IMG/VR virus record: IMGVR_UViG_3300030107_001798
Location: 1 to 54,059 of that record
Length of the DNA: 54,059 nucleotides
Direction: 5' to 3' (one strand)
Source: a virus
Taxonomy: Duplodnaviria; Caudoviricetes
Shown here: positions 1,729 through 24,530 of the stretch, piece by piece
Numbering within the stretch: the first letter of the stretch is position 1
Layout: every line of letters starts with the position of its first letter
Program-made: the position numbers and the translations under genes
Notes under the pieces: model-generated
Databases searched by the model: none
What the model was told of the DNA's origin: nothing
The model's input: the letters and a program-made list of their open reading frames with translations, nothing else

Positions 1729-1800
1729 AGCCTTTCAGCATGCTACATAAAGGCTTAAGGTTTTTTGCCTAGCGGGTGTTTTTCCACTGATAAAACTTTA
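1729..1800 (+). ncRNA. Two adjacent hairpins (putative structured RNA unit)
   Basis: AGCCTTT 1729-1735 / AAAGGCT 1749-1755; TAAGGTTTT 1756-1764 / AAAACTTTA 1792-1800 (one G-U). Confidence 0.4.
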
Positions 1801-1810
1801 CAAATATTTA

Positions 1811-2002
1811 ATCAAGCCTAACAAGTAAAACCGAAAGGGCTCACAATAATGCTATTGGAGGAAACCTAAGCAAACAATAAAAGTAATACGATGACTATAG
1901 AAACTTGTGTTAACTAGATTGGGCGTATTAATAGCACAATGCATTGCATTGGTGGAAGAGGAGAACTTGTGAGAACTTAGCTCAAAAGGCTAAAGGCTTG
2001 AT
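1811..2002 (+). ncRNA. Putative ~190-nt multi-junction structured RNA
   Basis: Nested helices ATCAAGCCT/AGGCTTGAT, CTCACAA/TTGTGAG, TGCTATT/AATAGCA, AATACG/CGTATT, plus local hairpins CC-GAAA-GG, CAATGC/GCATTG and TTAGC/GCTAA; no ORF in the track. Confidence 0.65.
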
Positions 2003-2007
2003 AATAT

Positions 2008-2078
2008 GGGCACTGTCATCTTATACCCACAACTACAATCTAAGGTATAAAGAGCTCCGCATCCTCTTGGCAGTGCCC
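2008..2078 (+). ncRNA. Stem-closed small RNA element
   Basis: GGGCACTGTC 2008-2017 / GGCAGTGCCC 2069-2078; inner TCTTATACC/GGTATAAAGA. Confidence 0.55.
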
Positions 2079-13104: not shown

Positions 13105-15864
13105 TTAAGTTAACTCGCCTTCTTCTAACATTCTCAAACTTCTTTCTATTCCTTGAGGTAGTACTTTTTTACGAACTTTTTTGTATGTTTTTTGTATTTC
13201 TTTTGCTTCTTTAGTGGGGTATAAACCAAGTTCTTGTTGTATTGCCCAACCAATTCTACCTTCATTAATTTGGGGTATATGTCTTTCAATTAATCTTCCA
13301 GCAAAACCATTTAATATCCTTATTGTTTTGCTAAGGTCTGTACTTTGAGTATTTAAATCATATTCTTGCATACCTGTAATAATCGTAAGCAATGAATCTT
13401 CGTCTAAATTTACAACATCCAACATCATTCCTATATCTATTATATCAGATGCTAATGGGCCTCCAAAAGTAGAAAGTATAGGGCCTTTACCATAGAATGC
13501 TTTTTTAATATCCTCATCATCCCCAGTCATAATAGTAGCAAGCTGATTAATTCTATTAGCAGAATCATGCTCTACAAGATTGTTAAAATTTAAACCAGTA
13601 ATTGCAGAAGCTATAACTGGAGCTAAAAAATAAGCAACTGCCATTCTATATGCTTTTTCTAGACCCCTAGCATCCCCATTTGGAATTAAGTTTCCTGCTA
13701 ATACATCTTGTTTAGCTTCTTTTAAAATTTTAACATTTCTTTCAAAAAATTCCATACTATAATGTTGAAATTGGAACATAAATCTACCAATTTTACTTCT
13801 AAAGGCTTTCGATTTTGCATAATCAGCATAATCAAAATGATTAAGAATAACCATATTTTTAGCATAGTTCTGTGCAATTTGTTGTATAGATGTTTCCAAT
13901 TTAGACTCAGAAAAACCTTCACCCCATTCTCTTTTTTTAGTTTCAGCAAACTGAGGATTGTCCTTTAACCATTTATACATCTGAGCAAAACCTATTTTAA
14001 ATGTGTGTTTTCTATTTGAATTTTCTGCTTTTCTATGTAAATAAGATGTTTTAGCTGCTATAGTTGATGTAAAATTTGCAAAATTTTCAAGTCTACTTTT
14101 TTCCCTTATTTCATATTTTCCTTTAGATTCATTCCAAATTCTTAAATTAAACATTGAAGCTGGTTCCATTAATCCAGTTTCTAATAATTGAGGAGAAACT
14201 TCATCAAATAAAAGGCCAGCATCTTTTAATGCACTTTCAACAAATACATTTGAATCAACCTCCACTCCCTTAGAAGTTTTTAATGTCATATTTTTTAATT
14301 GTTGATTCATTGTAGATATTTGAATCGGGCCCCATTCAACATAATCTAATAATCTTTGAGTAAAGTTTCTTGCAGCAGAGCGTGGGTTAACACCAAGCTT
14401 AGATATGAACTCAAAACCCAATAAAGACCTCATTAAAGCCCTAGTTTTGGGACTTATATCAGTATCTCCATTAGATGCTTTATGTAAATCTGTAATGTAA
14501 TCAACTATATTTTGCCCATATCCTTGAGCAGAACCTTTCATTTTGAATATTTTTTCAACACCAGATAAAGACCTAAGGAAGTGAGCATCTGTAAAAGAAG
14601 TAAAGTTAAATCTATTAACATCTGAAATATAGCTATCAACTACATTTAAAAAATGTTTACTATAATTATAATCAGCTTCTTCTGCTATTCCTTTAGCATG
14701 CTCACTAATATCTAATCTAATTTGATTAGCTATTTCAATAACTGTTTTAGGTTTGTCTTTTATATATGGGTTAGCTGCGTTTTGTAAATCATCTAAGTGA
14801 GGCATCATCTTCTGCATAAATGGAGCACTTAAATCTCTTACATAATGTGGAAAATAACCAGCTTTATATTTAGGCATAAGTTGTTCTCTTAGCTTTTCTT
14901 TAACGTCTTTTAATTCTTTTACTGATTTTTCATCACCATTAATCTTCATTCTTTCAATAATAGAATTAATTCTTTGGTCTATTCCACTTTTAAGGGATTT
15001 ATATAGGTCTTGCATCATAACATCATATTGAACAACTGCTTTATATAATTCCGGTCTTTCTTTTAAAGCAACCCCATTTCTATCTTTTACAATATTAGCA
15101 ATTTCTCTATCTGTTAATATAACTCTTGCATTGCCTTTATCAATTTTTTTTAAAAGTTCTTTAGAAGAAGAGTCTCCTTTATTAGCTTTATCTTTTATAA
15201 CATTATATTTAGCTTCTGTAGCTTCTTTTAATCCTCTTTCTACAACATCCATAAAATCACCAAAAGATTTTAATTCACCACTGGTTGTGAGTTTATTTAT
15301 TTCTTTCTGAACCTCAGAAGCTTTAGCATCATCTCCATCATTTATTGCTTTTACTAAGTCATTATCTAGTTTTGTCATTTTCTTTTGAGCAGCCCTGTAT
15401 CCTAATTTTCCGAGCATACTATTTATACCTGCGTCTTTTTGCAATGATGTAATAATTTCTTTAAATCTATTTCTATCTCTTAATTCATTTTTTCTAAAAA
15501 AGAAACTAGAGTTTTGCATATCTTTTAAATATCCACCAATCACAGGGTCTTTAGCTCCATAATGAGATGTTTGATAAAAGTATTGAGCAAATTGACCATC
15601 CAATCTTCCAGACTTTATATTTTGATTTAATGTTTTAAGTGTCTTTTTAAATCCATTAAGCCTTCCCTTAGTAAGTATTTCAGAATTTGTATCGTATTTT
15701 AATGTATCTAATTCAACAAGAAAATCTCTTTCAGCTAATCTAAAAGCAGCTTCATAAGGATTATTCATCTGTTTTCTGCTTAAATTAGATTTAGACCAAT
15801 TGTCTATAGTATCTAATAATTCTTTATAATGTGGATTTACGATATTGCAATTAATTGAAGCCAT
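13105..15864 (-). CDS. Large internal virion (ejection) protein; likely start MASIN at 15864
   Basis: Last gene of the late arm; TAATG coupling; helical, with C-terminal HFDY...QFQHYS and hydrophobic segments. Confidence 0.7.
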   Translation of the reverse strand: MASINCNIVNPHYKELLDTIDNWSKSNLSRKQMNNPYEAAFRLAERDFLVELDTLKYDTNSEILTKGRLNGFKKTLKTLNQNIKSGRLDGQFAQYFYQTSHYGAKDPVIGGYLKDMQNSSFFFRKNELRDRNRFKEIITSLQKDAGINSMLGKLGYRAAQKKMTKLDNDLVKAINDGDDAKASEVQKEINKLTTSGELKSFGDFMDVVERGLKEATEAKYNVIKDKANKGDSSSKELLKKIDKGNARVILTDREIANIVKDRNGVALKERPELYKAVVQYDVMMQDLYKSLKSGIDQRINSIIERMKINGDEKSVKELKDVKEKLREQLMPKYKAGYFPHYVRDLSAPFMQKMMPHLDDLQNAANPYIKDKPKTVIEIANQIRLDISEHAKGIAEEADYNYSKHFLNVVDSYISDVNRFNFTSFTDAHFLRSLSGVEKIFKMKGSAQGYGQNIVDYITDLHKASNGDTDISPKTRALMRSLLGFEFISKLGVNPRSAARNFTQRLLDYVEWGPIQISTMNQQLKNMTLKTSKGVEVDSNVFVESALKDAGLLFDEVSPQLLETGLMEPASMFNLRIWNESKGKYEIREKSRLENFANFTSTIAAKTSYLHRKAENSNRKHTFKIGFAQMYKWLKDNPQFAETKKREWGEGFSESKLETSIQQIAQNYAKNMVILNHFDYADYAKSKAFRSKIGRFMFQFQHYSMEFFERNVKILKEAKQDVLAGNLIPNGDARGLEKAYRMAVAYFLAPVIASAITGLNFNNLVEHDSANRINQLATIMTGDDEDIKKAFYGKGPILSTFGGPLASDIIDIGMMLDVVNLDEDSLLTIITGMQEYDLNTQSTDLSKTIRILNGFAGRLIERHIPQINEGRIGWAIQQELGLYPTKEAKEIQKTYKKVRKKVLPQGIERSLRMLEEGELT

Positions 15865-18800
15865 TACACTGCACACTTTTCTAGTTCAATTAATTCATCT
15901 TTCATTCTACGAAGTCTTTCCTCACTACTTTCGTCTATCGGAAGATTGTTTTTAACATTCTCAACAGATTTGCTTCTTTTATACATTTCTTTTAAACTAT
16001 CCATTCCTTGTTTTCCAGATTTTTCTAAATTAAGATTCTTAAAATAACTACTGCCGCCCATTAACGCATACACTGGATTATTCATTAATTTAGTAGTTAA
16101 TTCTGGTTTTAAATTACCTTGTTTTAACCCTAATCCAATTGTTTTTTGAGCAATATCTCTAATATCAGCATCCATAGAATTTCTAGCGTGGAGATAAGAA
16201 ACTGGATTAAGAATATTATTACTCATCATTAATTCTTGTAAATTACTCATTTGGTCTATATATGTATCAAATTCTTTAGACTTACCAGATGCCTCCATTA
16301 TGTCTTTATAAAAACTAAACAAATGGTCATTAAACAACCCAAAACCGTTTTTAATCCTATCTCCAGTTTTAGTCCATTGAATAGTTCCAAAATCTCCAAA
16401 TCGTTTTTCAAAATCTTTATGGAAAGTAGGAAGTTTAATTGCATCATATATTAATTTTTCTTGGCCTGTTGCTCCAAAAGTGAAAGCATCGCCCAAGTTA
16501 TCAGATACTAATTTTTGCATATCAAATTTTCTATCAAAAAATCTTTGAAATTGAGCTTCAGTAACTTGTATATAGGCTAATGCTGTTTGCGCAAGTGATT
16601 GTACTTCTGGGTCTATAACATCCTCACCAAACAATCTCATTTCTTTTCTAGATGCAAGTTGGGTTAAGAAATTCAAACCTCTTCTATATCTAGATGATGG
16701 GTCATATCCTTCTTTTGCTTCAAATGGAACTGCTATTGGGTTACCATTAAAGACTCCAATTTTGTGTTTATTTACAGATGGCTGCATAAATGCCCACAAA
16801 AATTTTAATCCATGTTTATTAACACCTCTTAACAATAATGCACTTTCTATGTCTTGATATGTATTCATATCTGGAAATCTTTCAAGAAATCTTTGCTGTT
16901 CTGGGCTAAGAGATTGCCTTCCTCCATATTTCATTATTTCACCAAGATTGTTCTGGCTTCCATAAAATAATTTTCTATATTGTTTTATGTCATTTATTTC
17001 TTGCCAAGCTTTTTGCCCTAAACCAAAACTATCATCCCCATTAATAAGTGGCATGAATTTTTTTATTTGTTCCATTGTTGAATAATAAACAGTTCCTTTT
17101 TTCATATTACTTGTATTTACATCAACAAATTCAATTTTTTGCAAATCTTTAGAAGACCATGTTTCAAGGTATTTTTCACCTAACCATTCTTTACCAAGTT
17201 CTTTATGCAATTCTTCTTTTAAATTATTAATTTTATCTATTGCAAGTTGTTTCTTTTGCCAAGTCATTCTCTTATTATATTTTATTTGCATTACTTTTTT
17301 ATTAAGAGATTTTATTAAATCAATTTTTTTATTTATATCCCAAGTAGTTTTCAAAACATTTGATTTTAATATTCTACTAGATGTATCTAATTCTTTATTT
17401 TCCATTCTATTGTCAAAAACAAACTCGTCATACCAATCATTTAAATATTCCCTTGCTTTACCAGTGAGAGTTTCTACTCTTGTTTCTTCAAATAAATTAG
17501 CATCCCATAATTTCCACAATGTTCTTTCAATTGGGGAACCTCTTTTACCTTCTGCAAATCCCCTAGATTGTCTCTCTACTGCATTTGGAAACATTTTATC
17601 ATTGTTTGTTACTTTCCATTTAATTTTACCATCATCACTTACTCTATCTTCCACTCCAAATAAAGAAATAAATTCATTACTATCTTTCCATTTGTCTTTA
17701 TTTGTTATATTTCCATCCTTGTCTTCTGCATAATTTTGATATTTATTTCTTAATCTATAGTATAAAGATTTTCTTAAATTTTGATTAAATTGAAAAAATC
17801 TATTAGATGCTTCCATTACATCTTCATAAGATGTTTTTTTCTGCTCTCCACTTTTTTCGTAAACAGAATCTCCAGTTACTTGTAATAATTTACCATATTC
17901 AGATAACATCTCTTTTACAATTGACATATCTAAAGGGCTTAAATCATCAATTTCTTTAAATGTACCATCATCTGTTTTAGTTAATTTTCTAAAAATTCTT
18001 ACCCTTTGTCCGTTATCAGCTTCTCCTTTTTTAGCAACTTGATTGGTGAAACCTATTTTATCAGAAACATTCATTTCTCTTAAATCTTTAGAACTTTTAG
18101 AATTATCCCAATTAGGAAATAAAAAATCATCTCTCCAAGAATATATATCATTAGATATTTCTTTATTTAAATCACCTTTACCATCTATAATATATTGAGT
18201 TTCGAGAGCAGACCTTTGATAAAAATCTGTATTATCATAATCCATTACAATTTTATAACCAGGCCCTTCATATAATATTTTAGAATTTTCTTCACCTTCC
18301 ATTGATATATCGACTGCCTTTCCAGTTTTAGAATCAACAGCTACTGATTGTCCTAAGTTTCCTAAGTAATTTAACATTCTGGGAACTTTTTGAACTAATC
18401 CTATAGATGATTTATATAGCTCTAATGCGGCTGACATTTCTTCAACTTTATCATTTTCCATTGTTGTATTTTGATTCCAATTAAATCCAGACGTTTTCAT
18501 TAAAGCTGTTGGGTCTACTCCCTGAACCCAGAATTGAGAAGTTCTTTGAATATGGTCATACATATTTTTTCTTTCAGCGAAAAAGTAATCTGCTTTATCC
18601 GCATCATAATCACCTTCAAAAACATTAACAACGTCTAGACTATTTACCATCATGGAATTTCCATATGTTTCATCTAAAAATCCTTTTAATCCCATCAATG
18701 TTAAATCGTTTGGCCTTGTTCTTGGATTTCTTCTAACAATAATACCAACTTGAAGATTAGGTCTATTGTTTTCAACACCCAATGTTTGTACTAATTCATG

Positions 18801-21800
18801 TAAATTACCTAAACTAATATCTATATCAAGATTAACACCAAAATCTTCTTTTAATTCTTTAAATATTTCTTCTGGTGTATATACTTTTGAATCTTCGACA
18901 ATTCTTAATTCATACCCCTTGCTAATTAAAGCAGCTACTTTCATATCAGCTTCAAAAGCAGGAAGCATTACTTCTCCCCTACTTTTCATAACTCCATCAT
19001 TGTCTACTAATGTTGCTCTTAATCTGGCATCTGGATGAGAAAGTGCAATAGGAGCCTGTATTAAAGAAGATTGACCTCCGTATCTTTCTGAATCTTCATG
19101 ATTAAATTGATTACTAACAGACCTTTTATTATTAATAAGTGGGTCTATATACGCACCATATATTTTATTTTTAACTATATTTTCACTATAGCTCATTGGA
19201 TTTGCATCTCTAGTAAGCCCAGCAAAAAAATTCATTCCATTTAAATGATTTAGTGATTCGGTTCCATCTACCATAGAAACAAGAGCGTCATCTCCAAATT
19301 GATTTCTTATCCATTTTCTCGTTGAGATAGGGTCTTTAATTTGTTGTTGAGCGTTTCTAAGGGACTCCGATAAAGGCCTTTCTATTTCATCTGCAAAATA
19401 CTTAGCAGATTCATCGTTATTTGCATAATTCATATCTGCGTGAGACCTTTTACCAGTCGGAAGAATAACATCTTTTTCAGGCTTAACTCCAATAGATTGA
19501 AGGCTTATTCTTCTTAATTGTTTTGTATTTGTTTTGTATTTGTTTAAGTCTTTCCATTCAGCGTCATCTATCATAGAACCTTCAATTAGGTTCATTGCTT
19601 TAGCTCCACTTGCAGATAATATAACATCTACATTTTTATTTTCTCTTTTTCCAAAAAAACCATCTAAATCTTTTGAGTAAACAAATAAAGTTTTACCCAT
19701 TAGCAATGGAGAATCTATTCCACCAGAAGCAATAACTGGTTTAATTGGATTAGTAGAATCTGGGCTATGCCCCATCATAGTGTGAAGATATTTCATCATA
19801 TCTTTACTTATATATGCTATACTATCAAAAGAAGATACATCTTTATGAGCATCTCCTATAATATTATCAAGGTCAATATCTATATTATTATCTTTTATAT
19901 ATTTATTAACTTCTTCTCTTACATCTGCATTTTTATCGTTCCAAACTACAACTCCAAATTCACCTCTTCTTAATCTATTTCTTAATACTTCTGCAGTTTC
20001 TTTATCTCCAATAGCTCTATAAGAATCAGCGACGTCTAATATAAATTCTTTATCATATGTAACGAATTTTTTTGTATCGTATAACTTTGTTCTTCCAAAT
20101 AATTTTTCAGTATTTAATTTGCCATTCATAAAATCAGCAAACAAAGCATCTCCATCGCTACCAACTAACATATCAGACAACATTAATCTTCTTAAAGCAG
20201 CTATATAATCCACCTCTGAGGCAAGTCTTTTATTGTCATCAGCTTCTTTTAAAGATTTTTGTATATCTTCAATTATATTTTTTTGTCTTTGGTTTAAAGG
20301 GCTTTCTTCTGATGTGTATAAATCTGCAAATTCATCAAACTTTGCTTTTATTTTTGGAAGGTCTGCATTTTTAATCGCTATAGGGCTAAGATTAGGAGCT
20401 AACCTCATAACAGCCATTCCTCTTTCACCGTTCTCACCAGTTAAATATTCACCATCTATTTGTTGAGCAAATCCCATTTCAGCATTAAACTCGTCTCTCA
20501 GTTTGTCTATTATTTTTATTTGCTTTTCTGGTAAATTATTATTTTTACCAAAAATATTTATTCTTCTTCTTTGTACTCTCCTACCATCATCATTATAAAT
20601 GTATTGTGTTATATATGGGTCTATATTCATGTATTTAATGTCAAGACCATCAAACAAAATATCCATTCTAGTGGTTTGTTTTACTTCTTTACCCTTTGTT
20701 AATCTTCCATTTTTCCATTCTACAGTTTCAACTTTTGCTTGATTTAATCTTCCACCTACTAATCCAATAAAATCAGCAATCATAGAAGGTTTCATTATAT
20801 TTTTTCTTGACTTAGGTAAATCTGAAAACTTTACCCAATCTGTTTTAGCTAAATTTTTAACATACAATCTATCAAATATTCCATCTAAGGATTCTACTTT
20901 TGTAACTTTCCTACCTTCCCAATCATCAAATATTAATTGATTAAACACTTCTTCTTGTTTTTTAGGTTCTGTTTGTTTTTTACCATCTATTCTATATCTA
21001 TCAAAAAATTCTTGAAGAGTAATTGTTTTTACATAATCACCCTCACCAGAATCAAGCATTTCTCTGTCTCTTGAATTCTTTTCTAATGTTTCATATATTC
21101 TTTCAGCATATTCTGGAGTGACCCCATATTGATTAATTTTTTTTGTCATTTTTAAAGCAACAATATCATTAAATTGCTCTAAGTTTATTTCAAATTTAGT
21201 TTCATTTTCTTTAAGACTTATTACTTCAAACTCATTTAACCATTTAAGCATTCTTGTTTCAGATTCAGGCCCACCTTCTTCTAATAATCTTCCTATTTGG
21301 TCTTGAAGCTTAGCAGAGCCAGGAATATTAGATTCTCCTAGAATATTTACAAACTCCATTAATGTTGCTTTAGCAGAGTTGCCAAAATTAGGGTCAGAAC
21401 CAAAAGGAAGTCCTTTATTTGGTTTTAAAGAGTCACTCATTATTTTTAACATTTCCATATCTGTAACCATAACTTTATCAGCAGATAAAGAAACTAATCC
21501 TTTGGAATTTTTTTGGATTTCCCTAACTCTTGAATTGTATTCTACAATATCAGATTCAGAAACACCACTTACCAATTCAGAGCCTTCATTTAATATTTTT
21601 TCATCTATTAATTTTAAAGTAAAACCAGATGTTTTTTTACCAGTCACGTCAACACCAACTGAAGCCATACCTAATCCAGATAAAGCCATTATCCCATCGA
21701 CATCACCTATAGTAAGGTCTGTTCCCTCAATCTTATCCCTAATAGCAAAATCAACAATGTGTTTATGCATCCACATGGGCATTTTAGATTCATTATAACC

Positions 21801-24530
21801 CAATTCATTAAGTTTATTTCTTAATATGTCAATTTTAGAACCATCTACAGTTACATTAGTATTAGTTCTATCATAATTACCAGTTATGGATTGTATAGAA
21901 AGAACTCTTCCTAAGAATCTTTTTCTTTCAGCATCTTTTTCTGGGTCTCCAGAATCTTTTATTCTAATTTGGTCTACACTTTCAACAAGTAATGGACTTG
22001 CTAACCCTTTTTCATAACTCATTAAACCAGAATTTTCAAGGTGCCTAATTAATTCATTTCTTTCACCAAACTCTGGTTTAAATATATCAGTAATTCCTCG
22101 AGCAGTTCTTATAGCATGATTTCTTAAAACAACAAACCTATAGTCATTAAAATTATCTGCAAATCCAAATTTAGAAGACATAGAACTATTATCTGGAAAC
22201 ATTCTATCCATTTGACTTTCTTCAAAAGATATACGTTCATGTATTTTCTTTATGCTACTTAATTCTTTTAATATAACTGTATTTTTATCTGGAGCTTCAT
22301 TTGTTTTTACTTGAGCAAGTTCTTCTGATATATATATAATTGAATTTAATCCATCAACGCTTCTATATAGAGCATTAACAGCTTCTTGACCTTCTAGTCC
22401 CAACCAATCTATTTTACCTTCTCTAGCTAATTTAATTATTTCTTCGTCTATTGTAACATGTTGAGGAACTTTTAATTTAGAAACCTTACCATCTGCTTCT
22501 TCAATAATGCCAAGTTCTTCTATATTTTTTACTGATGAAATTATATTTGGAAAATTTTGTTCAAATTCTTCTGTCATTTTCAATGATTGCGTGTCAAGCA
22601 TTTTTTCAACGGAATTAATATTGTCTAGATTAACATCTGGATTTATTTTATTAAAAGCATCTACAATTTTTTTAGCTGATTCTGTTGATATGCCGTCAAG
22701 GGGTTTTTGATATGCTCTCATTCCCCTTAACCATCCATATATTTGTTCAAACGACCTACTTTTATTTTGTGGTAATCCAACACTTAATTCGGTATCTGGA
22801 AGAGGAGTATCCACCGCTACATAATCATCCGATATAACTCCTTCGGATATAGCAGTGTCAATAACGTCTAAATTTATTTTATCATGAAGAGGATTTCTAA
22901 ATCGATTTTCAGGTTGCATCAATGAAGGTATTTGACTTAATTGGTCAGGTTTAAATCCTAATAATGCAAGATTTTCCCTTATTTGTATCATTTTATTATC
23001 GCTTAAATCAAACTTACTTGGATTTGTTCTTCTTTGTATATAAGCGCCAATTAAAAAATGTGGAAGTATATCATTAGCAAAATCCATATCCATATCATTT
23101 GCATACATCTGATAAAATGATTGAGAATTAAATAATAAACCGCCTAACATCATTCTAGGCCATACTTTAAAAACATTCTGGGCTTCTTCTTTCGTTGCCC
23201 ATTTCATTATTTCTCTTCCCCATTTTTTTCTTTGACCTTCAAGAAAAGACCTCATAGCCCCAGCTGCATCATCCTTTCCAAATTTCTTTTGAAACTCAGA
23301 AAGAGTTCTTGATGAACCAAATTCAGCTCCCACATAATCACCCATAGAATCTAATCTAACATCTTTAGTTTTTCCCTTATATGTAATTTTAACTGTGGCG
23401 TCTTCTCCATTATTTTTTAAAGATTGTCCTATATATCTAGAGACACTTGCTAATTCACGTTCTCCCAGTTTCGTATATGGACTTTTACCAGTAAAAGCTG
23501 CTTTTGCTCCAATTTTAAAATCTTTAAACCAAGAAGATGCTTTACCTCTTGGGTTTAAGAAAGATAAAGATGAGAAAGCTATACCATTAGCAACTCCCCA
23601 CAATGGAGCTGTCCAATCATATTCATGGTCTTCTATTGTACTTACACCTTCAAATACTGCATCTATCATTGAAAAAACCATTACATCATTAGCTGCGTGA
23701 CCAGCGAATCTTGCTAATTTTGTATCACCCCACCTAGCCATTGCCAATCCTTGAAAATCTTGGATAGGTCTTTTAAAAACATTAAAACCACCAGCTACGT
23801 CATCAGCTAAAAACATATTCCTAATAGCATCAGCTTCATCTTTATTTTTAATAATTCCGTTTTTTATACCCAATTCAATGTATTCATCTCTATATCTAGC
23901 AACCGCTTCACCAAATTTTTCACCTTGTAAAGTTTTATCTATTTGAGCTTCTTGAACAAGCCTTTTATATCCAGAAGTAGTTTGATTTATTGCTTTCCTG
24001 CTTAGACCTCCAGCTTCACCAGCTTCCCTCATTCCTTTTATTACAGTAGAAGCTCCTTGTTTTTGAACAAACTTAGGGGCTAAAGCTGATGCAACTTTCT
24101 GACTTGCTTTTAATCCTATTTTCATAGGAGCTCCACCAACAAACCCTGCAAATCCACCAACTGCTCCAAGCCATTTTGCTAATGGGTCTTCAAAATCTAG
24201 GTATTCTTCTTCCTCTACAAAAGCACCTGGTAATCCGAATAAAGCGCTATCAGTAAAAGACCACAATCCAACTCCCAAAGCATTTGCTAAACTAGTATCA
24301 GATGATTGTTTAGTATCAGATTCAAACCAATCTGGCAACGCACTTTCGCCAACTGAAGAAAGCATATTTTGTTCGGGTTGGTTAATATTTTGCGTTGGTA
24401 AATTTGATGTTAAAGCAGGTGATTGTGAAAAGTTATATTTATCTAAAACTTTTGAAATTTCATCAGAACTAACAGATTTTCCTCTTCTGGCTAATTCTTG
24501 TTGAATTTGTAATGTAAGATTGTCAGCCAC
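15864..24530 (-). CDS. 2888-aa internal virion protein with a two-barrel RNA polymerase core (putative virion RNAP)
   Basis: IIVRRNPRTRPND (~aa 1930-1942) followed by FEGDYDADK (D1974/D1976/D1978, nt 18597-18611); upstream FDSIAYIS, IKPV, GKTLF and SGAK. Confidence 0.8.
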   Translation of the reverse strand: MADNLTLQIQQELARRGKSVSSDEISKVLDKYNFSQSPALTSNLPTQNINQPEQNMLSSVGESALPDWFESDTKQSSDTSLANALGVGLWSFTDSALFGLPGAFVEEEEYLDFEDPLAKWLGAVGGFAGFVGGAPMKIGLKASQKVASALAPKFVQKQGASTVIKGMREAGEAGGLSRKAINQTTSGYKRLVQEAQIDKTLQGEKFGEAVARYRDEYIELGIKNGIIKNKDEADAIRNMFLADDVAGGFNVFKRPIQDFQGLAMARWGDTKLARFAGHAANDVMVFSMIDAVFEGVSTIEDHEYDWTAPLWGVANGIAFSSLSFLNPRGKASSWFKDFKIGAKAAFTGKSPYTKLGERELASVSRYIGQSLKNNGEDATVKITYKGKTKDVRLDSMGDYVGAEFGSSRTLSEFQKKFGKDDAAGAMRSFLEGQRKKWGREIMKWATKEEAQNVFKVWPRMMLGGLLFNSQSFYQMYANDMDMDFANDILPHFLIGAYIQRRTNPSKFDLSDNKMIQIRENLALLGFKPDQLSQIPSLMQPENRFRNPLHDKINLDVIDTAISEGVISDDYVAVDTPLPDTELSVGLPQNKSRSFEQIYGWLRGMRAYQKPLDGISTESAKKIVDAFNKINPDVNLDNINSVEKMLDTQSLKMTEEFEQNFPNIISSVKNIEELGIIEEADGKVSKLKVPQHVTIDEEIIKLAREGKIDWLGLEGQEAVNALYRSVDGLNSIIYISEELAQVKTNEAPDKNTVILKELSSIKKIHERISFEESQMDRMFPDNSSMSSKFGFADNFNDYRFVVLRNHAIRTARGITDIFKPEFGERNELIRHLENSGLMSYEKGLASPLLVESVDQIRIKDSGDPEKDAERKRFLGRVLSIQSITGNYDRTNTNVTVDGSKIDILRNKLNELGYNESKMPMWMHKHIVDFAIRDKIEGTDLTIGDVDGIMALSGLGMASVGVDVTGKKTSGFTLKLIDEKILNEGSELVSGVSESDIVEYNSRVREIQKNSKGLVSLSADKVMVTDMEMLKIMSDSLKPNKGLPFGSDPNFGNSAKATLMEFVNILGESNIPGSAKLQDQIGRLLEEGGPESETRMLKWLNEFEVISLKENETKFEINLEQFNDIVALKMTKKINQYGVTPEYAERIYETLEKNSRDREMLDSGEGDYVKTITLQEFFDRYRIDGKKQTEPKKQEEVFNQLIFDDWEGRKVTKVESLDGIFDRLYVKNLAKTDWVKFSDLPKSRKNIMKPSMIADFIGLVGGRLNQAKVETVEWKNGRLTKGKEVKQTTRMDILFDGLDIKYMNIDPYITQYIYNDDGRRVQRRRINIFGKNNNLPEKQIKIIDKLRDEFNAEMGFAQQIDGEYLTGENGERGMAVMRLAPNLSPIAIKNADLPKIKAKFDEFADLYTSEESPLNQRQKNIIEDIQKSLKEADDNKRLASEVDYIAALRRLMLSDMLVGSDGDALFADFMNGKLNTEKLFGRTKLYDTKKFVTYDKEFILDVADSYRAIGDKETAEVLRNRLRRGEFGVVVWNDKNADVREEVNKYIKDNNIDIDLDNIIGDAHKDVSSFDSIAYISKDMMKYLHTMMGHSPDSTNPIKPVIASGGIDSPLLMGKTLFVYSKDLDGFFGKRENKNVDVILSASGAKAMNLIEGSMIDDAEWKDLNKYKTNTKQLRRISLQSIGVKPEKDVILPTGKRSHADMNYANNDESAKYFADEIERPLSESLRNAQQQIKDPISTRKWIRNQFGDDALVSMVDGTESLNHLNGMNFFAGLTRDANPMSYSENIVKNKIYGAYIDPLINNKRSVSNQFNHEDSERYGGQSSLIQAPIALSHPDARLRATLVDNDGVMKSRGEVMLPAFEADMKVAALISKGYELRIVEDSKVYTPEEIFKELKEDFGVNLDIDISLGNLHELVQTLGVENNRPNLQVGIIVRRNPRTRPNDLTLMGLKGFLDETYGNSMMVNSLDVVNVFEGDYDADKADYFFAERKNMYDHIQRTSQFWVQGVDPTALMKTSGFNWNQNTTMENDKVEEMSAALELYKSSIGLVQKVPRMLNYLGNLGQSVAVDSKTGKAVDISMEGEENSKILYEGPGYKIVMDYDNTDFYQRSALETQYIIDGKGDLNKEISNDIYSWRDDFLFPNWDNSKSSKDLREMNVSDKIGFTNQVAKKGEADNGQRVRIFRKLTKTDDGTFKEIDDLSPLDMSIVKEMLSEYGKLLQVTGDSVYEKSGEQKKTSYEDVMEASNRFFQFNQNLRKSLYYRLRNKYQNYAEDKDGNITNKDKWKDSNEFISLFGVEDRVSDDGKIKWKVTNNDKMFPNAVERQSRGFAEGKRGSPIERTLWKLWDANLFEETRVETLTGKAREYLNDWYDEFVFDNRMENKELDTSSRILKSNVLKTTWDINKKIDLIKSLNKKVMQIKYNKRMTWQKKQLAIDKINNLKEELHKELGKEWLGEKYLETWSSKDLQKIEFVDVNTSNMKKGTVYYSTMEQIKKFMPLINGDDSFGLGQKAWQEINDIKQYRKLFYGSQNNLGEIMKYGGRQSLSPEQQRFLERFPDMNTYQDIESALLLRGVNKHGLKFLWAFMQPSVNKHKIGVFNGNPIAVPFEAKEGYDPSSRYRRGLNFLTQLASRKEMRLFGEDVIDPEVQSLAQTALAYIQVTEAQFQRFFDRKFDMQKLVSDNLGDAFTFGATGQEKLIYDAIKLPTFHKDFEKRFGDFGTIQWTKTGDRIKNGFGLFNDHLFSFYKDIMEASGKSKEFDTYIDQMSNLQELMMSNNILNPVSYLHARNSMDADIRDIAQKTIGLGLKQGNLKPELTTKLMNNPVYALMGGSSYFKNLNLEKSGKQGMDSLKEMYKRSKSVENVKNNLPIDESSEERLRRMKDELIELEKCAV

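What the first reader, a model, noticed from the sequence alone, without database searches (positions are those of the whole stretch)
1811..2002. ~190-nt multi-junction noncoding RNA of no family I recognise
Seen: four nested long-range helices, 1811-1819/1994-2002, 1840-1846/1967-1973, 1850-1856/1930-1936 and 1885-1890/1924-1929, the last two with abutting 3-prime strands. Local hairpins include a CC-GAAA-GG GNRA tetraloop (1831-1838), 1937-1951 and 1977-1993. All helices are mutually compatible. Inference: this is typical of a folded functional RNA such as a ribozyme, protein sponge or anti-defence decoy.
Basis: partly seen in the sequence, partly recalled or inferred. Interest (0 to 1): 0.75.

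Follow-up and report, generated by a model that had tools for sequence, protein, structure and literature searches.

The report
New structured RNA in marine phages
A stretch of about 190 bases between two early genes of an uncultured marine phage folds into a conserved multi-helix RNA that matches no known RNA family; its job is unknown, and it sits as a movable cassette among other small structured RNAs.

Summary
All four long-range helices and the three hairpins are perfect Watson-Crick pairings at the stated coordinates. The 192-nt stretch folds better than all 200 shuffles, z -3.05.

I found 9 further distinct homologues, in two sequence types plus one natural chimera. On a model-fitted alignment, 97.6% of 456 cells pair and 14 of 50 pairs change on both sides. 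Slid registers give 29-42% paired.

Covariation supports P1, the GNRA hairpin, P3 and the 1937-1951 hairpin.

Forty G.U pairs make it a + strand RNA. No Rfam family matches.

It is a sporadic cassette, present in 2 of 66 related loci and also in a second phage lineage. It lies next to a widely conserved three-way-junction RNA (2008-2078), other structured modules and, in one relative, a tRNA-Tyr gene.

The best reading is a stand-alone stable phage RNA of unknown role. No test here bears on a ribozyme, sponge or decoy role.

The parts
1811..2002 (+). Whole structured RNA, 192 nt, window type ('W')
   Evidence: Fold z -3.05. Homologues in 9 further distinct sequences begin and end at the same terminal helix while the flanks differ. 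Model R2 matches all 10 end to end.
1811..1819 (+). P1 5' strand; pairs with 1994-2002
   Evidence: 9 bp; 100% of cells paired; 3 of 9 pairs change on both sides (UA to CG, and CG to UA twice).
1994..2002 (+). P1 3' strand
   Evidence: As for the 5' strand. In L137 a tRNA-Tyr gene starts 7 nt after this end.
1831..1838 (+). P1a: 2-bp stem with a GAAA tetraloop
   Evidence: CC/GG in 5 sequences and CU/AG in 5; the loop GAAA is invariant.
1840..1846 (+).
   Evidence: 7 bp in 5 of 5 window-type sequences, with an A-to-G change giving G.U in 4. It is 4 of 7 in L142. The second type uses a different 3' partner directly after P6. RNAalifold does not predict it across types.
1850..1856 (+). P3 5' strand; pairs with 1930-1936
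   Evidence: 3 pairs change on both sides between types (GCUAUU/AAUAGC against GAUACG/CGUAUC); 100% paired.
1857..1874 (+). Conserved, largely unpaired block GGAG(G/U)(A/G)AACCUAAGCAAA inside P3; only GC at 1870-1871 forms a 2-bp pairing, whose partner is ambiguous (1923-1924, or 1925-1926 by RNAalifold)
   Evidence: Nearly invariant across both types. Not part of any covarying helix.
1875..1878 (+). P4b 5' strand; pairs with 1918-1921
   Evidence: CAAU/AUUG against CUUU/A(A/G)AG: 2 pairs change on both sides; one C.A in L135.
1884..1912 (+). P5 hairpin: stem 1884-1891/1905-1912, 13-nt loop 1892-1904 holding the invariant GACUAUAGAAAC with the palindrome CUAUAG
Evidence: 70 of 70 cells in my table pair. 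One search counts 1 pair changed on both sides and 4 changed on one side; in my table a second pair also goes A-U to G-C. There are many G.U pairs.
1937..1951 (+).
   Evidence: CAAUGC/GCAUUG against CAUUAC/GU(A/G)AUG: 2 pairs change on both sides. The second type carries a 26-nt insert in the loop, and L011 a 17-nt insert.
1977..1993 (+).
   Evidence: Present and invariant in the 6 sequences with a window-type 3' end. The second type has a longer, different structure here.
2008..2078 (+). Neighbouring conserved three-way-junction RNA: P1 2008-2018/2068-2078, P2 2021-2027/2044-2050 (loop holds CACAACUACAAU), P3 2051-2054/2064-2067 (loop CUCCGCAUC), then a U-rich tail
   Evidence: z -4.39. 38 instances and 25 distinct sequences. 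25 of 25 fold to the same topology with different helix letters. P1 covaries at 3 pairs.
1729..1755 (+). Hairpin AGCCUUU...AAAGGCU after the upstream ORF, with a T-run at 1761-1766
   Evidence: Read. A comparable hairpin AGCCGCU...AGCGGCU follows the upstream ORF in L009. The scan did not call it a terminator.

Best explanation
Window 1811-2002 is a gene for a discrete, stably folded noncoding RNA read from the + strand. It is made during early transcription of an uncultured marine tailed phage.

Shown: a 9-bp terminal helix (P1) closes a multi-branch core. The core holds a 2-bp GAAA-capped hairpin. It also holds a helix P2 that encloses a long arm (P3, a conserved internal loop, P4b, then P5 with a 13-nt loop) and a variable hairpin P6. 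A last hairpin, P7, abuts the 3' strand of P1. The helices vary by compensatory change while several unpaired blocks are invariant.

Inferred: the RNA is cut out of, or ends within, the early transcript at the foot of P1. Its neighbours in the same slot (the three-way-junction RNA, other stem-closed modules, a tRNA) would be released in the same way. It then acts in trans through its invariant single-stranded blocks, most likely by binding a protein or by pairing with a second copy through the palindromic loop CUAUAG.

It is an accessory cassette exchanged between phages, which fits a host-takeover or counter-defence role better than a core function. The biochemical role itself is not shown.
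For: Structure:
- The fold is better than 200 of 200 shuffles, z -3.05. Homologues give z -3.16, -2.50 and -2.02.
- On alignment A7 (10 distinct sequences), 97.6% of 456 cells pair and 14 of 50 pairs change on both sides. The covariation score is 0.331 against 0.160 in shuffles, and 0 of 500 shuffles reach it. Partners slid by 1-3 columns give 28.8-42.5% paired and 1-2 such pairs.
- RNAalifold on the same alignment independently recovers P1, P1a, P3, P4b, P5 and P6; 12 of its 39 pairs are compensatory.
- My coordinate-based table gives 333 of 334 cells canonical.

Strand and RNA nature:
- 40 of those cells are G.U. Read on the minus strand, the same helices drop to 294 of 334.
- Differences between the types include 1-, 2- and 17-nt indels, so the stretch is not coding.

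Autonomy:
- The same RNA lies in different surroundings. It is followed by the three-way junction (window, L011, L068, L008), by a tRNA-Tyr gene 7 nt downstream on the same strand (L137), or by unrelated sequence (L118, L142).
- It is always co-oriented with the flanking ORFs.
- The flanks diverge (59-68% identity) while the RNA is 96-97% identical among window-type copies. The exonuclease gene 2.6 kb away is 80% identical.

A weak hint of expression: one contig of a metatranscriptome library equals window 1810-1963 with no differences.
Against: No transcript ends, level or strand were measured. The RNA-library record is an assembled contig, the tool warns that DNA can be present in such a library, and the contig's end may be an assembly branch point.

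Only 10 distinct sequences are known, and they fall into two types plus a chimera. Most compensatory pairs therefore trace to one deep split. Alignment A7 was fitted to my structure, and I chose the helices after seeing the sequences.

The consensus scan found no terminator, and promoter-like sites were no more frequent than in shuffles (7 against 6.4). In L142 the RNA starts 10 nt after a stop codon, so it may be only a domain of an mRNA.

No protein gene co-occurs specifically with it. Nothing tested bears on protein binding or dimer formation.
Confidence: 0.45

Rival explanations
1. A cis-acting domain of the early polycistronic mRNA. It would be a processing, stabilising or antitermination element that works only on the transcript that carries it, together with the adjacent three-way junction and its U-rich tail.
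For: It is always co-oriented with the flanking early ORFs and lies between them. In L142 it starts 10 nt after a stop codon, leaving no room for its own promoter. No promoter or terminator signal of its own was found. It sits 5 nt upstream of a conserved stem followed by a U-rich tail and a ribosome-binding site.
Against: The downstream partner differs between contexts: a three-way junction, a tRNA, or unrelated sequence. 64 of 66 related loci, scanned over up to 7 kb either side of the exonuclease gene where the contig allows, lack it, and at least 29 of these still have the three-way junction. Invariant unpaired blocks inside a closed multi-helix fold are more than a processing hairpin needs.
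Confidence: 0.2
2. A mobile catalytic RNA: an intron-like or self-cleaving cassette that inserts into, and removes itself from, the RNA-gene slot.
For: L009 shows an 'empty site' (CTCTAGAATTATGGGCATTG). L011 and L068 have the 192-209-nt element exactly between ...AATTATG and GGGCATTG, with AATT(T)ATG on both sides. The element is far more conserved than its flanks and occurs in two phage lineages whose large terminases are 28-29% identical. Its size, its GNRA loop and its conserved unpaired core resemble those of small ribozymes.
Against: No group I intron or self-cleaving ribozyme family of Rfam matches, even at E up to 10. All covarying helices are nested, the two ends pair with each other, and no P3/P7-type pseudoknot was seen. 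The flanking repeats are not consistent in the other contexts, so homologous recombination in AT-rich flanks explains the insertion equally well.
Confidence: 0.12
3. A DNA-level element: a miniature inverted-repeat transposable element, a recombination hotspot or an origin, whose inverted repeats only look like RNA helices.
For: The terminal 9-bp inverted repeat changes in concert at both ends, as transposon ends would. The distribution is cassette-like, there is a natural chimera (L142), and a 20-nt sequence is inserted in L011 and repeated 380 nt upstream.
Against: 40 G.U pairs exist only on the + strand, and the minus-strand reading loses 39 pairs. Six internal helices covary. No transposase or consistent target duplication is present.
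Confidence: 0.05
4. A riboswitch aptamer that controls the downstream terminator-like three-way junction.
For: A P1-closed multi-helix fold with invariant junction and loop nucleotides lies directly upstream of a stem followed by a U-rich tail and a ribosome-binding site.
Against: I saw no alternative pairing between the P1 3' strand and the junction's stem on reading the sequence. The junction occurs without the RNA in at least 29 related loci. The RNA occurs without the junction in L118 and L142, and with a tRNA between them in L137. The downstream genes differ.
Confidence: 0.03

Closest known systems
Large orphan structured RNAs of phages and prophages found beside tRNA genes (GOLLD, ROOL)
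   Same: Phage-borne; multi-helix fold with covarying stems and invariant unpaired blocks; no known function; one relative has a tRNA gene 7 nt away. A self-complementary loop could allow self-association. Those RNAs are reported to form RNA-only assemblies; I saw only the start of the abstract of 10.1101/2024.12.08.627333 in the listing, and the rest is recalled.
   Different: This RNA is three to four times smaller (192-239 nt). Neither family's Rfam model matches. Self-association is only a guess here.
Candidate structured RNAs predicted from IMG/VR intergenic regions (Fremin, Bhatt and Kyrpides 2023, PMC10690425)
   Same: The same kind of source data, the same kind of evidence (covariation) and unnamed candidates of unknown function. 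I read the abstract and section 2.1.
   Different: Their candidates are 29-151 nt long, so the whole 192-nt RNA cannot be one of them. A sub-domain, or the 71-nt neighbouring junction, could be listed in supplements that I could not open.
Group I self-splicing introns of phages
   Same: Size range; phage setting; a GNRA tetraloop; a conserved core with variable periphery; presence and absence at an otherwise identical site.
   Different: No match to the Rfam group I model. The termini pair with each other. Only nested helices are found, and it does not interrupt a recognisable gene.
phi29-type packaging RNA (pRNA)
   Same: A phage RNA of comparable size with paired termini, a central junction and loops that could pair between copies (the properties of pRNA are recalled).
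   Different: No Rfam match. This phage has large and small terminase subunits and a portal of the usual kind. The RNA is absent from most relatives, so it cannot be an essential packaging part.
Stable small RNAs encoded in the tRNA gene region of phage T4 (recalled, not looked up)
   Same: Small stable RNAs of unknown role encoded next to tRNA genes and matured from a common precursor. The slot here holds several stem-closed modules and, in L137, a tRNA.
   Different: No sequence relation was tested or is known. Processing from a common precursor is only inferred here.

Membership tests
Any Rfam 15 family (4227 models) | Score at or above the family's gathering threshold, or at least a suggestive E-value | tested here: not met
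   0 matches at gathering score in the whole window and in 12 related loci apart from the tRNA of L137. At E up to 10 there were only unrelated weak hits, none in 1800-2095.
Group I intron | Match to the covariance model of the conserved core | tested here: not met
   No hit even at E up to 10 on the window type and the second type.
Group I intron | P3/P7 pseudoknot with a P4-P6 domain; termini not paired to each other | tested here: not met
   All covarying helices are nested, and the 5' and 3' ends form a 9-bp covarying helix. A hidden pseudoknot cannot be excluded with these tools.
Group I intron | Interrupts a gene and restores it by splicing | tested here: inconclusive
   Empty site in L009 against filled sites in L011 and L068. 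The site lies between RNA modules, not inside a recognisable gene. Splicing is not testable here.
Riboswitch | Aptamer whose P1 competes with an expression platform upstream of a consistent class of genes | tested here: not met
   I saw no competing pairing on reading the sequence. The downstream context varies: junction, tRNA, or unrelated sequence.
tRNA / tmRNA | Cloverleaf, or a tRNA-like domain with a tag reading frame | tested here: not met
   ARAGORN finds no gene in the window or in 39 of the 40 related loci scanned; the exception is the separate tRNA-Tyr of L137.
Miniature inverted-repeat transposable element | Terminal inverted repeats with target-site duplications of fixed length, and no single-strand asymmetry | tested here: not met
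   Terminal repeats are present. The flanking repeats are inconsistent between contexts. G.U pairing is strongly asymmetric between strands.
phi29-type pRNA | Essential packaging RNA of phages with protein-primed genomes | tested here: not met
   No Rfam match. The phage has large and small terminase subunits. 64 of 66 related loci lack the RNA.
Self-cleaving ribozyme (any class) | Site-specific self-scission | not testable with these tools
   Only the Rfam models of known classes could be tried, and none matches.

The most novel reading that the evidence does not exclude
The element is a new kind of self-contained RNA device that moves between unrelated marine phages as a cassette. It would be either a previously unseen ribozyme or an RNA-only decoy or sponge that assembles through its palindromic loop. 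It would belong to a phage 'RNA island' in which several orphan structured RNAs are shuffled around one conserved three-way-junction RNA.
Probability: 0.12. Interest if true: 0.85.

Novelty: new member of a known kind. Interest (0 to 1): 0.55.

Why it matters
Structured RNAs of 200 nt with invariant unpaired blocks are rare, and most of those studied turned out to be ribozymes, riboswitches or scaffolds of RNA-protein machines. This one is found only in uncultured marine phages. It is better conserved than the neighbouring protein genes and is exchanged between phage lineages. It also shares one intergenic slot with at least three other structured RNA families and a tRNA.

That points to an RNA-based accessory tool kit in the early region of these phages. 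If its role is host takeover or counter-defence, it would add an RNA class to a field dominated by proteins. Even without a known function, the family and its neighbours are ready-made targets for probing, cleavage assays and structure work.

Tried and rejected
Homologue searches that found nothing:
- The small flanking ORFs 1502-1714 and 2264-2581 have no relatives in viral contigs.
- blastn of 1700-2110 against cultured phages found no match. The large terminase is under 25% identical to that of any cultured phage.
- Block patterns in viral contigs returned only the same contigs plus chance hits in coding DNA.
- The genome contigs pattern for the RNA gave 0 hits.
- Model R1 aligned the 3' ends of the second type wrongly, because its MAFFT seed was wrong. 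I replaced it with R2 for the pair counts. R1 found no further homologue in 64 related loci, best E 0.6.

Sequencing runs:
- In the RNA library X6 I saw no contig over 1400-1806 or 1992-2500. The tool says a part without cover is no finding, so I draw nothing from it.
- DNA runs X3 and X5 hold exact contigs of the cassette only. This fits strain-variable flanks, and it also means the contig end at 1810 in X6 may be an assembly branch point.

Ideas dropped:
- A T7-type promoter. The resemblance of 1882-1902 is recalled, but only the 3' part is conserved. I did not see the motif repeated at intergenic sites in the complement scan. No RNA polymerase family was found in the proteins scanned, and the 922-aa protein hit nothing. 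The 2888-aa ORF was not scanned.
- A GAAA tetraloop receptor. 1865-1870 reads like one half of the classic receptor (recalled), but the partner half is absent and the second type changes it.
- An RNase P-like or tmRNA-like core. There is no Rfam or ARAGORN support.
- A small RNA with phage targets. Only scattered 9-11-nt complements were found; I did not compute a chance expectation and saw no pattern at gene starts.
- A partner protein gene. No gene is shared only by RNA-bearing contigs.
- Local hairpins CUC...GAG and CUGCC...GGCAG that compete with P3. One compensatory change supports them, but they are broken in L118 and L135, and P3 is better supported.

Other: the search of earlier findings was not open.

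Full report
**Observation.** They are 1811-1819/1994-2002 (9 bp), 1840-1846/1967-1973 (7 bp), 1850-1856/1930-1936 (7 bp) and 1885-1890/1924-1929 (6 bp). The hairpins 1831-1838 (CC-GAAA-GG), 1937-1951 and 1977-1993 are also there. RNAfold of 1811-2002 gives -44.5 kcal/mol against -33.5 (sd 3.6) for 200 dinucleotide shuffles, z -3.05, and none folds as well. The reverse strand scores alike, z -3.14, so stability alone does not give the strand. It replaces P4 with 1875-1878/1918-1921 plus a hairpin 1884-1891/1905-1912. The whole intergenic region 1718-2101 is not unusually stable, z -0.99.

**Setting.** The window is a viral record of 54,059 bases, estimated 96% complete, with about 32% G+C. It encodes large and small terminase subunits, a portal, an SU10-type capsid protein and tail fibres on the minus strand. 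On the plus strand it has an early/replication block with a Cas4-like exonuclease, a weak Rad52-like match, a DnaB-type helicase and a methyltransferase. No cultured phage is close: the large terminase is under 25% identical to any. The element lies in the 384-nt gap between ORF 1502-1717 and ORF 2102-2260, both on the plus strand. The window has no tRNA and no Rfam match.

**Homologues.** The small flanking ORFs gave no relatives. The exonuclease gene gave 66 related loci. A different, downstream stretch (about 2005-2090) matched 31 loci. Exact-pattern scans of conserved blocks added L068 and L118 from viral contigs. They added L135, L137, L139, L142, L143 and L144 from metagenome contigs. 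The remaining rows were chance matches, mostly in coding DNA. This leaves 10 distinct sequences:
- five of the window's type (192 nt, or 209 in L011);
- four of a second type (238-239 nt);
- one natural chimera, L142, with the second type's 5' two-thirds and the window type's 3' end.

A covariance model found no further copy in 64 related loci, best E 0.6. The species-representative genomes gave no pattern match.

**Structure from comparison.** My table by coordinates shows the following.
- P1: AUCAAGCCU/AGGCUUGAU against ACCAAGUUU/AAACUUGGU, three pairs changed on both sides.
- GNRA hairpin: CC/GG against CU/AG.
- P3: GCUAUU/AAUAGC against GAUACG/CGUAUC, three pairs changed.
- P4b: CAAU/AUUG against CUUU/AAAG, two pairs changed.
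- P5: 70 of 70 cells paired, with A-U to G-C changes and many G.U pairs.
- P6: CAAUGC/GCAUUG against CAUUAC/GUAAUG, two pairs changed.

Overall 333 of 334 cells are canonical and 12 of 34 pairs change on both sides. Slid registers give 30-42% paired and 0-2 such pairs.

A first model (R1) built on a MAFFT seed misplaced the 3' ends of the second type. I rebuilt it (R2) from six sequences, and it aligned all ten end to end. On that alignment the tool counts 97.6% of 456 cells paired. Fourteen of 50 pairs change on both sides. The covariation score is 0.331 against 0.160 in shuffles, reached by 0 of 500. Slid controls give 28.8-42.5% paired with 1-2 pairs. RNAalifold on the same alignment predicts P1, P1a, P3, P4b, an extended P5 and P6 on its own, with 12 of 39 pairs compensatory. 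It does not predict P2 or P7.

Three caveats apply. The alignment was fitted to my structure. I chose the helices after seeing the data. The sequences form only two types plus a chimera, so most double changes go back to one split.

P1, the GNRA hairpin, P3 and 1937-1951 are supported by compensatory change. P7 (1977-1993) is invariant in the six sequences that have it, and the second type has a longer, different structure there. P2 (1840-1846/1967-1973) is perfect or has one G.U in 5 of 5 window-type sequences, but only 4 of 7 in L142. The second type pairs the same 5' segment with a stretch directly after P6, at the same topological place. P4 (1885-1890/1924-1929) stays pairable through one-sided changes. 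It never changes on both sides, has a G.A mismatch in 5 of 10 sequences, and crosses P4b. P4b and P5 use the same 5' strand and do covary. I take P4b+P5 as the native pairing and cannot exclude a switch.

**Strand, coding and ends.** Forty cells are G.U on the plus strand. Read on the minus strand, the same helices fall to 294 of 334. The types differ by indels of 1, 2 and 17 nt, so the stretch is not coding. The RNA lies on the strand of the flanking ORFs in every context. In L137 a tRNA-Tyr(GTA) gene starts 7 nt after the last base of P1 on the same strand. The flanks outside P1 are 59-68% identical where the RNA is 96-97% identical among window-type copies, so P1 marks the ends of the conserved unit. 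One contig from a metatranscriptome library equals 1810-1963 exactly. The tool warns that this does not prove transcription, and the contig end may be an assembly branch point. I count it as a weak hint only.

**Cassette behaviour.** L009 reads CTCTAGAATTATGGGCATTG where L011 and L068 carry the whole RNA between ...AATTATG and GGGCATTG. Only 2 of the 66 related loci have the RNA. L118 and L142 belong to another lineage: their large terminases are 72% identical to each other and 28-29% to the window's. L142 is a recombinant between the two RNA types. L011 has a 17-nt insert after P6; it creates a 20-nt stretch (L011 4642-4661) that also stands at L011 4263-4282, and L144, otherwise almost the same, lacks the insert.

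**Neighbours.**
- Five bases downstream lies a three-way junction (2008-2078, z -4.39) with invariant loops CACAACUACAAU and CUCCGCAUC and a U-rich tail. It has 38 instances and 25 distinct sequences. All 25 fold to the same topology with different helix letters, and its closing stem covaries at three pairs.
- A 109-nt four-way-junction module occurs in 7 loci, with 3 compensatory pairs counted on the 6 of them I aligned.
- A 177-nt module occurs in L032, L005 and L007, upstream of the junction in L032 and downstream of it in L005.
- A very stable hairpin occurs in L068, z -6.13.
- A 121-nt module occurs in L011 and L144.

None of these matches Rfam.

**Known families.** Rfam gives nothing at gathering score or at E up to 10 on either type. 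That covers group I introns, the known self-cleaving ribozymes, RNase P, tmRNA, 6S, SRP, Y RNA, pRNA, GOLLD and ROOL. A group I reading fails on topology as well (nested helices, paired termini). A riboswitch reading fails on context. A transposable-element reading fails on the strand asymmetry.

Three literature searches found no description of this RNA. The survey of IMG/VR intergenic regions (PMC10690425; abstract and section 2.1 read) reports candidates of 29-151 nt. The whole RNA is therefore not among them. A sub-domain or the junction might be, but I could not open the supplements.

**Mechanism.** Shown: a plus-strand RNA fold maintained by selection, with invariant unpaired blocks. These are UAACAAGUAAAAC, the 1857-1874 block, the P5 loop GACUAUAGAAAC, and AG(G/C)AGAACU. 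Also shown is a cassette-like, sporadic distribution in an RNA-rich slot of the early region. Inferred: it is released as a discrete stable RNA bounded by P1 and acts in trans through those blocks, by binding a protein or a second copy (the P5 loop holds the palindrome CUAUAG), in an accessory role. I give this reading 0.45. The rivals are a cis-acting mRNA domain (0.2), a mobile catalytic RNA (0.12), a DNA-level element (0.05) and a riboswitch (0.03).

**Verdict.** It is sound as an observation and open as to function. Its setting is notable, but it rests on few sequences.

Noticed in passing
window 2008-2078 (+): A conserved three-way-junction RNA with invariant loops CACAACUACAAU and CUCCGCAUC and a U-rich tail. 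It is found in at least 31 of 66 related loci, with 25 distinct sequences that all fold the same way and a covarying closing stem. It has no Rfam match and is more widespread than the finding itself.
   Followed up: partly
L011 4469-4483; L118, just downstream of its RNA copy (minus strand of the locus; coordinates not worked out): A small hairpin GGGA-CUCCGCA-UCCC carries the same loop motif as arm P3 of the three-way junction, standing alone. A similar GGAACUCCGC followed by a T-run lies upstream of the RNA in L118.
   Followed up: no
L027 4984-5092; also L020, L021, L025, L052, L053, L059: A 109-nt four-way-junction module lies upstream of the three-way junction (z -2.31). RNAalifold finds 32 pairs, 3 of them compensatory. 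It has no Rfam match in L020 and L021. Its 3' end also appears upstream of the RNA in L137.
   Followed up: partly
L032 690-866; L005 4848-5024; L007 3762-3910: A 177-nt module (z -2.41) lies upstream of the three-way junction in L032 but downstream of it in L005. The modules are therefore shuffled around the junction.
   Followed up: partly
L068 519-606; L011 4806-4926 (also L144): Further stem-closed modules lie after the three-way junction: a 13-bp-closed hairpin with a U-run (z -6.13) in L068, and a 121-nt module (z -1.94) in L011.
   Followed up: partly
L137 940-1019 (-): A tRNA-Tyr(GTA) gene lies between the structured RNA (7 nt upstream of it) and the three-way junction, all on one strand.
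   Followed up: yes
L142 7427-7640: A natural chimera of the two RNA types, with the switch near AGCAGAACU.
   Followed up: yes
L011 4642-4661 and 4263-4282: A 20-nt sequence that contains a mini-hairpin occurs twice. In the RNA copy, 17 of its letters are an insert after P6, and L144, otherwise nearly identical, lacks that insert.
   Followed up: partly
window 1892-1904: The invariant P5 loop contains the 6-nt palindrome CUAUAG, which could let two copies pair loop to loop.
   Followed up: no
window 15864-24530 (-) and 13105-15876 (-): A 2888-aa ORF and an adjacent 923-aa ORF. The 923-aa protein matches no PHROG or Pfam family at the thresholds used. The 2888-aa ORF was not searched.
   Followed up: partly
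window 1729-1766: A hairpin AGCCUUU...AAAGGCU followed five bases later by a T-run sits after the upstream ORF. L009 has a comparable hairpin with different stem letters. It may be a terminator that the consensus scan missed.
   Followed up: no
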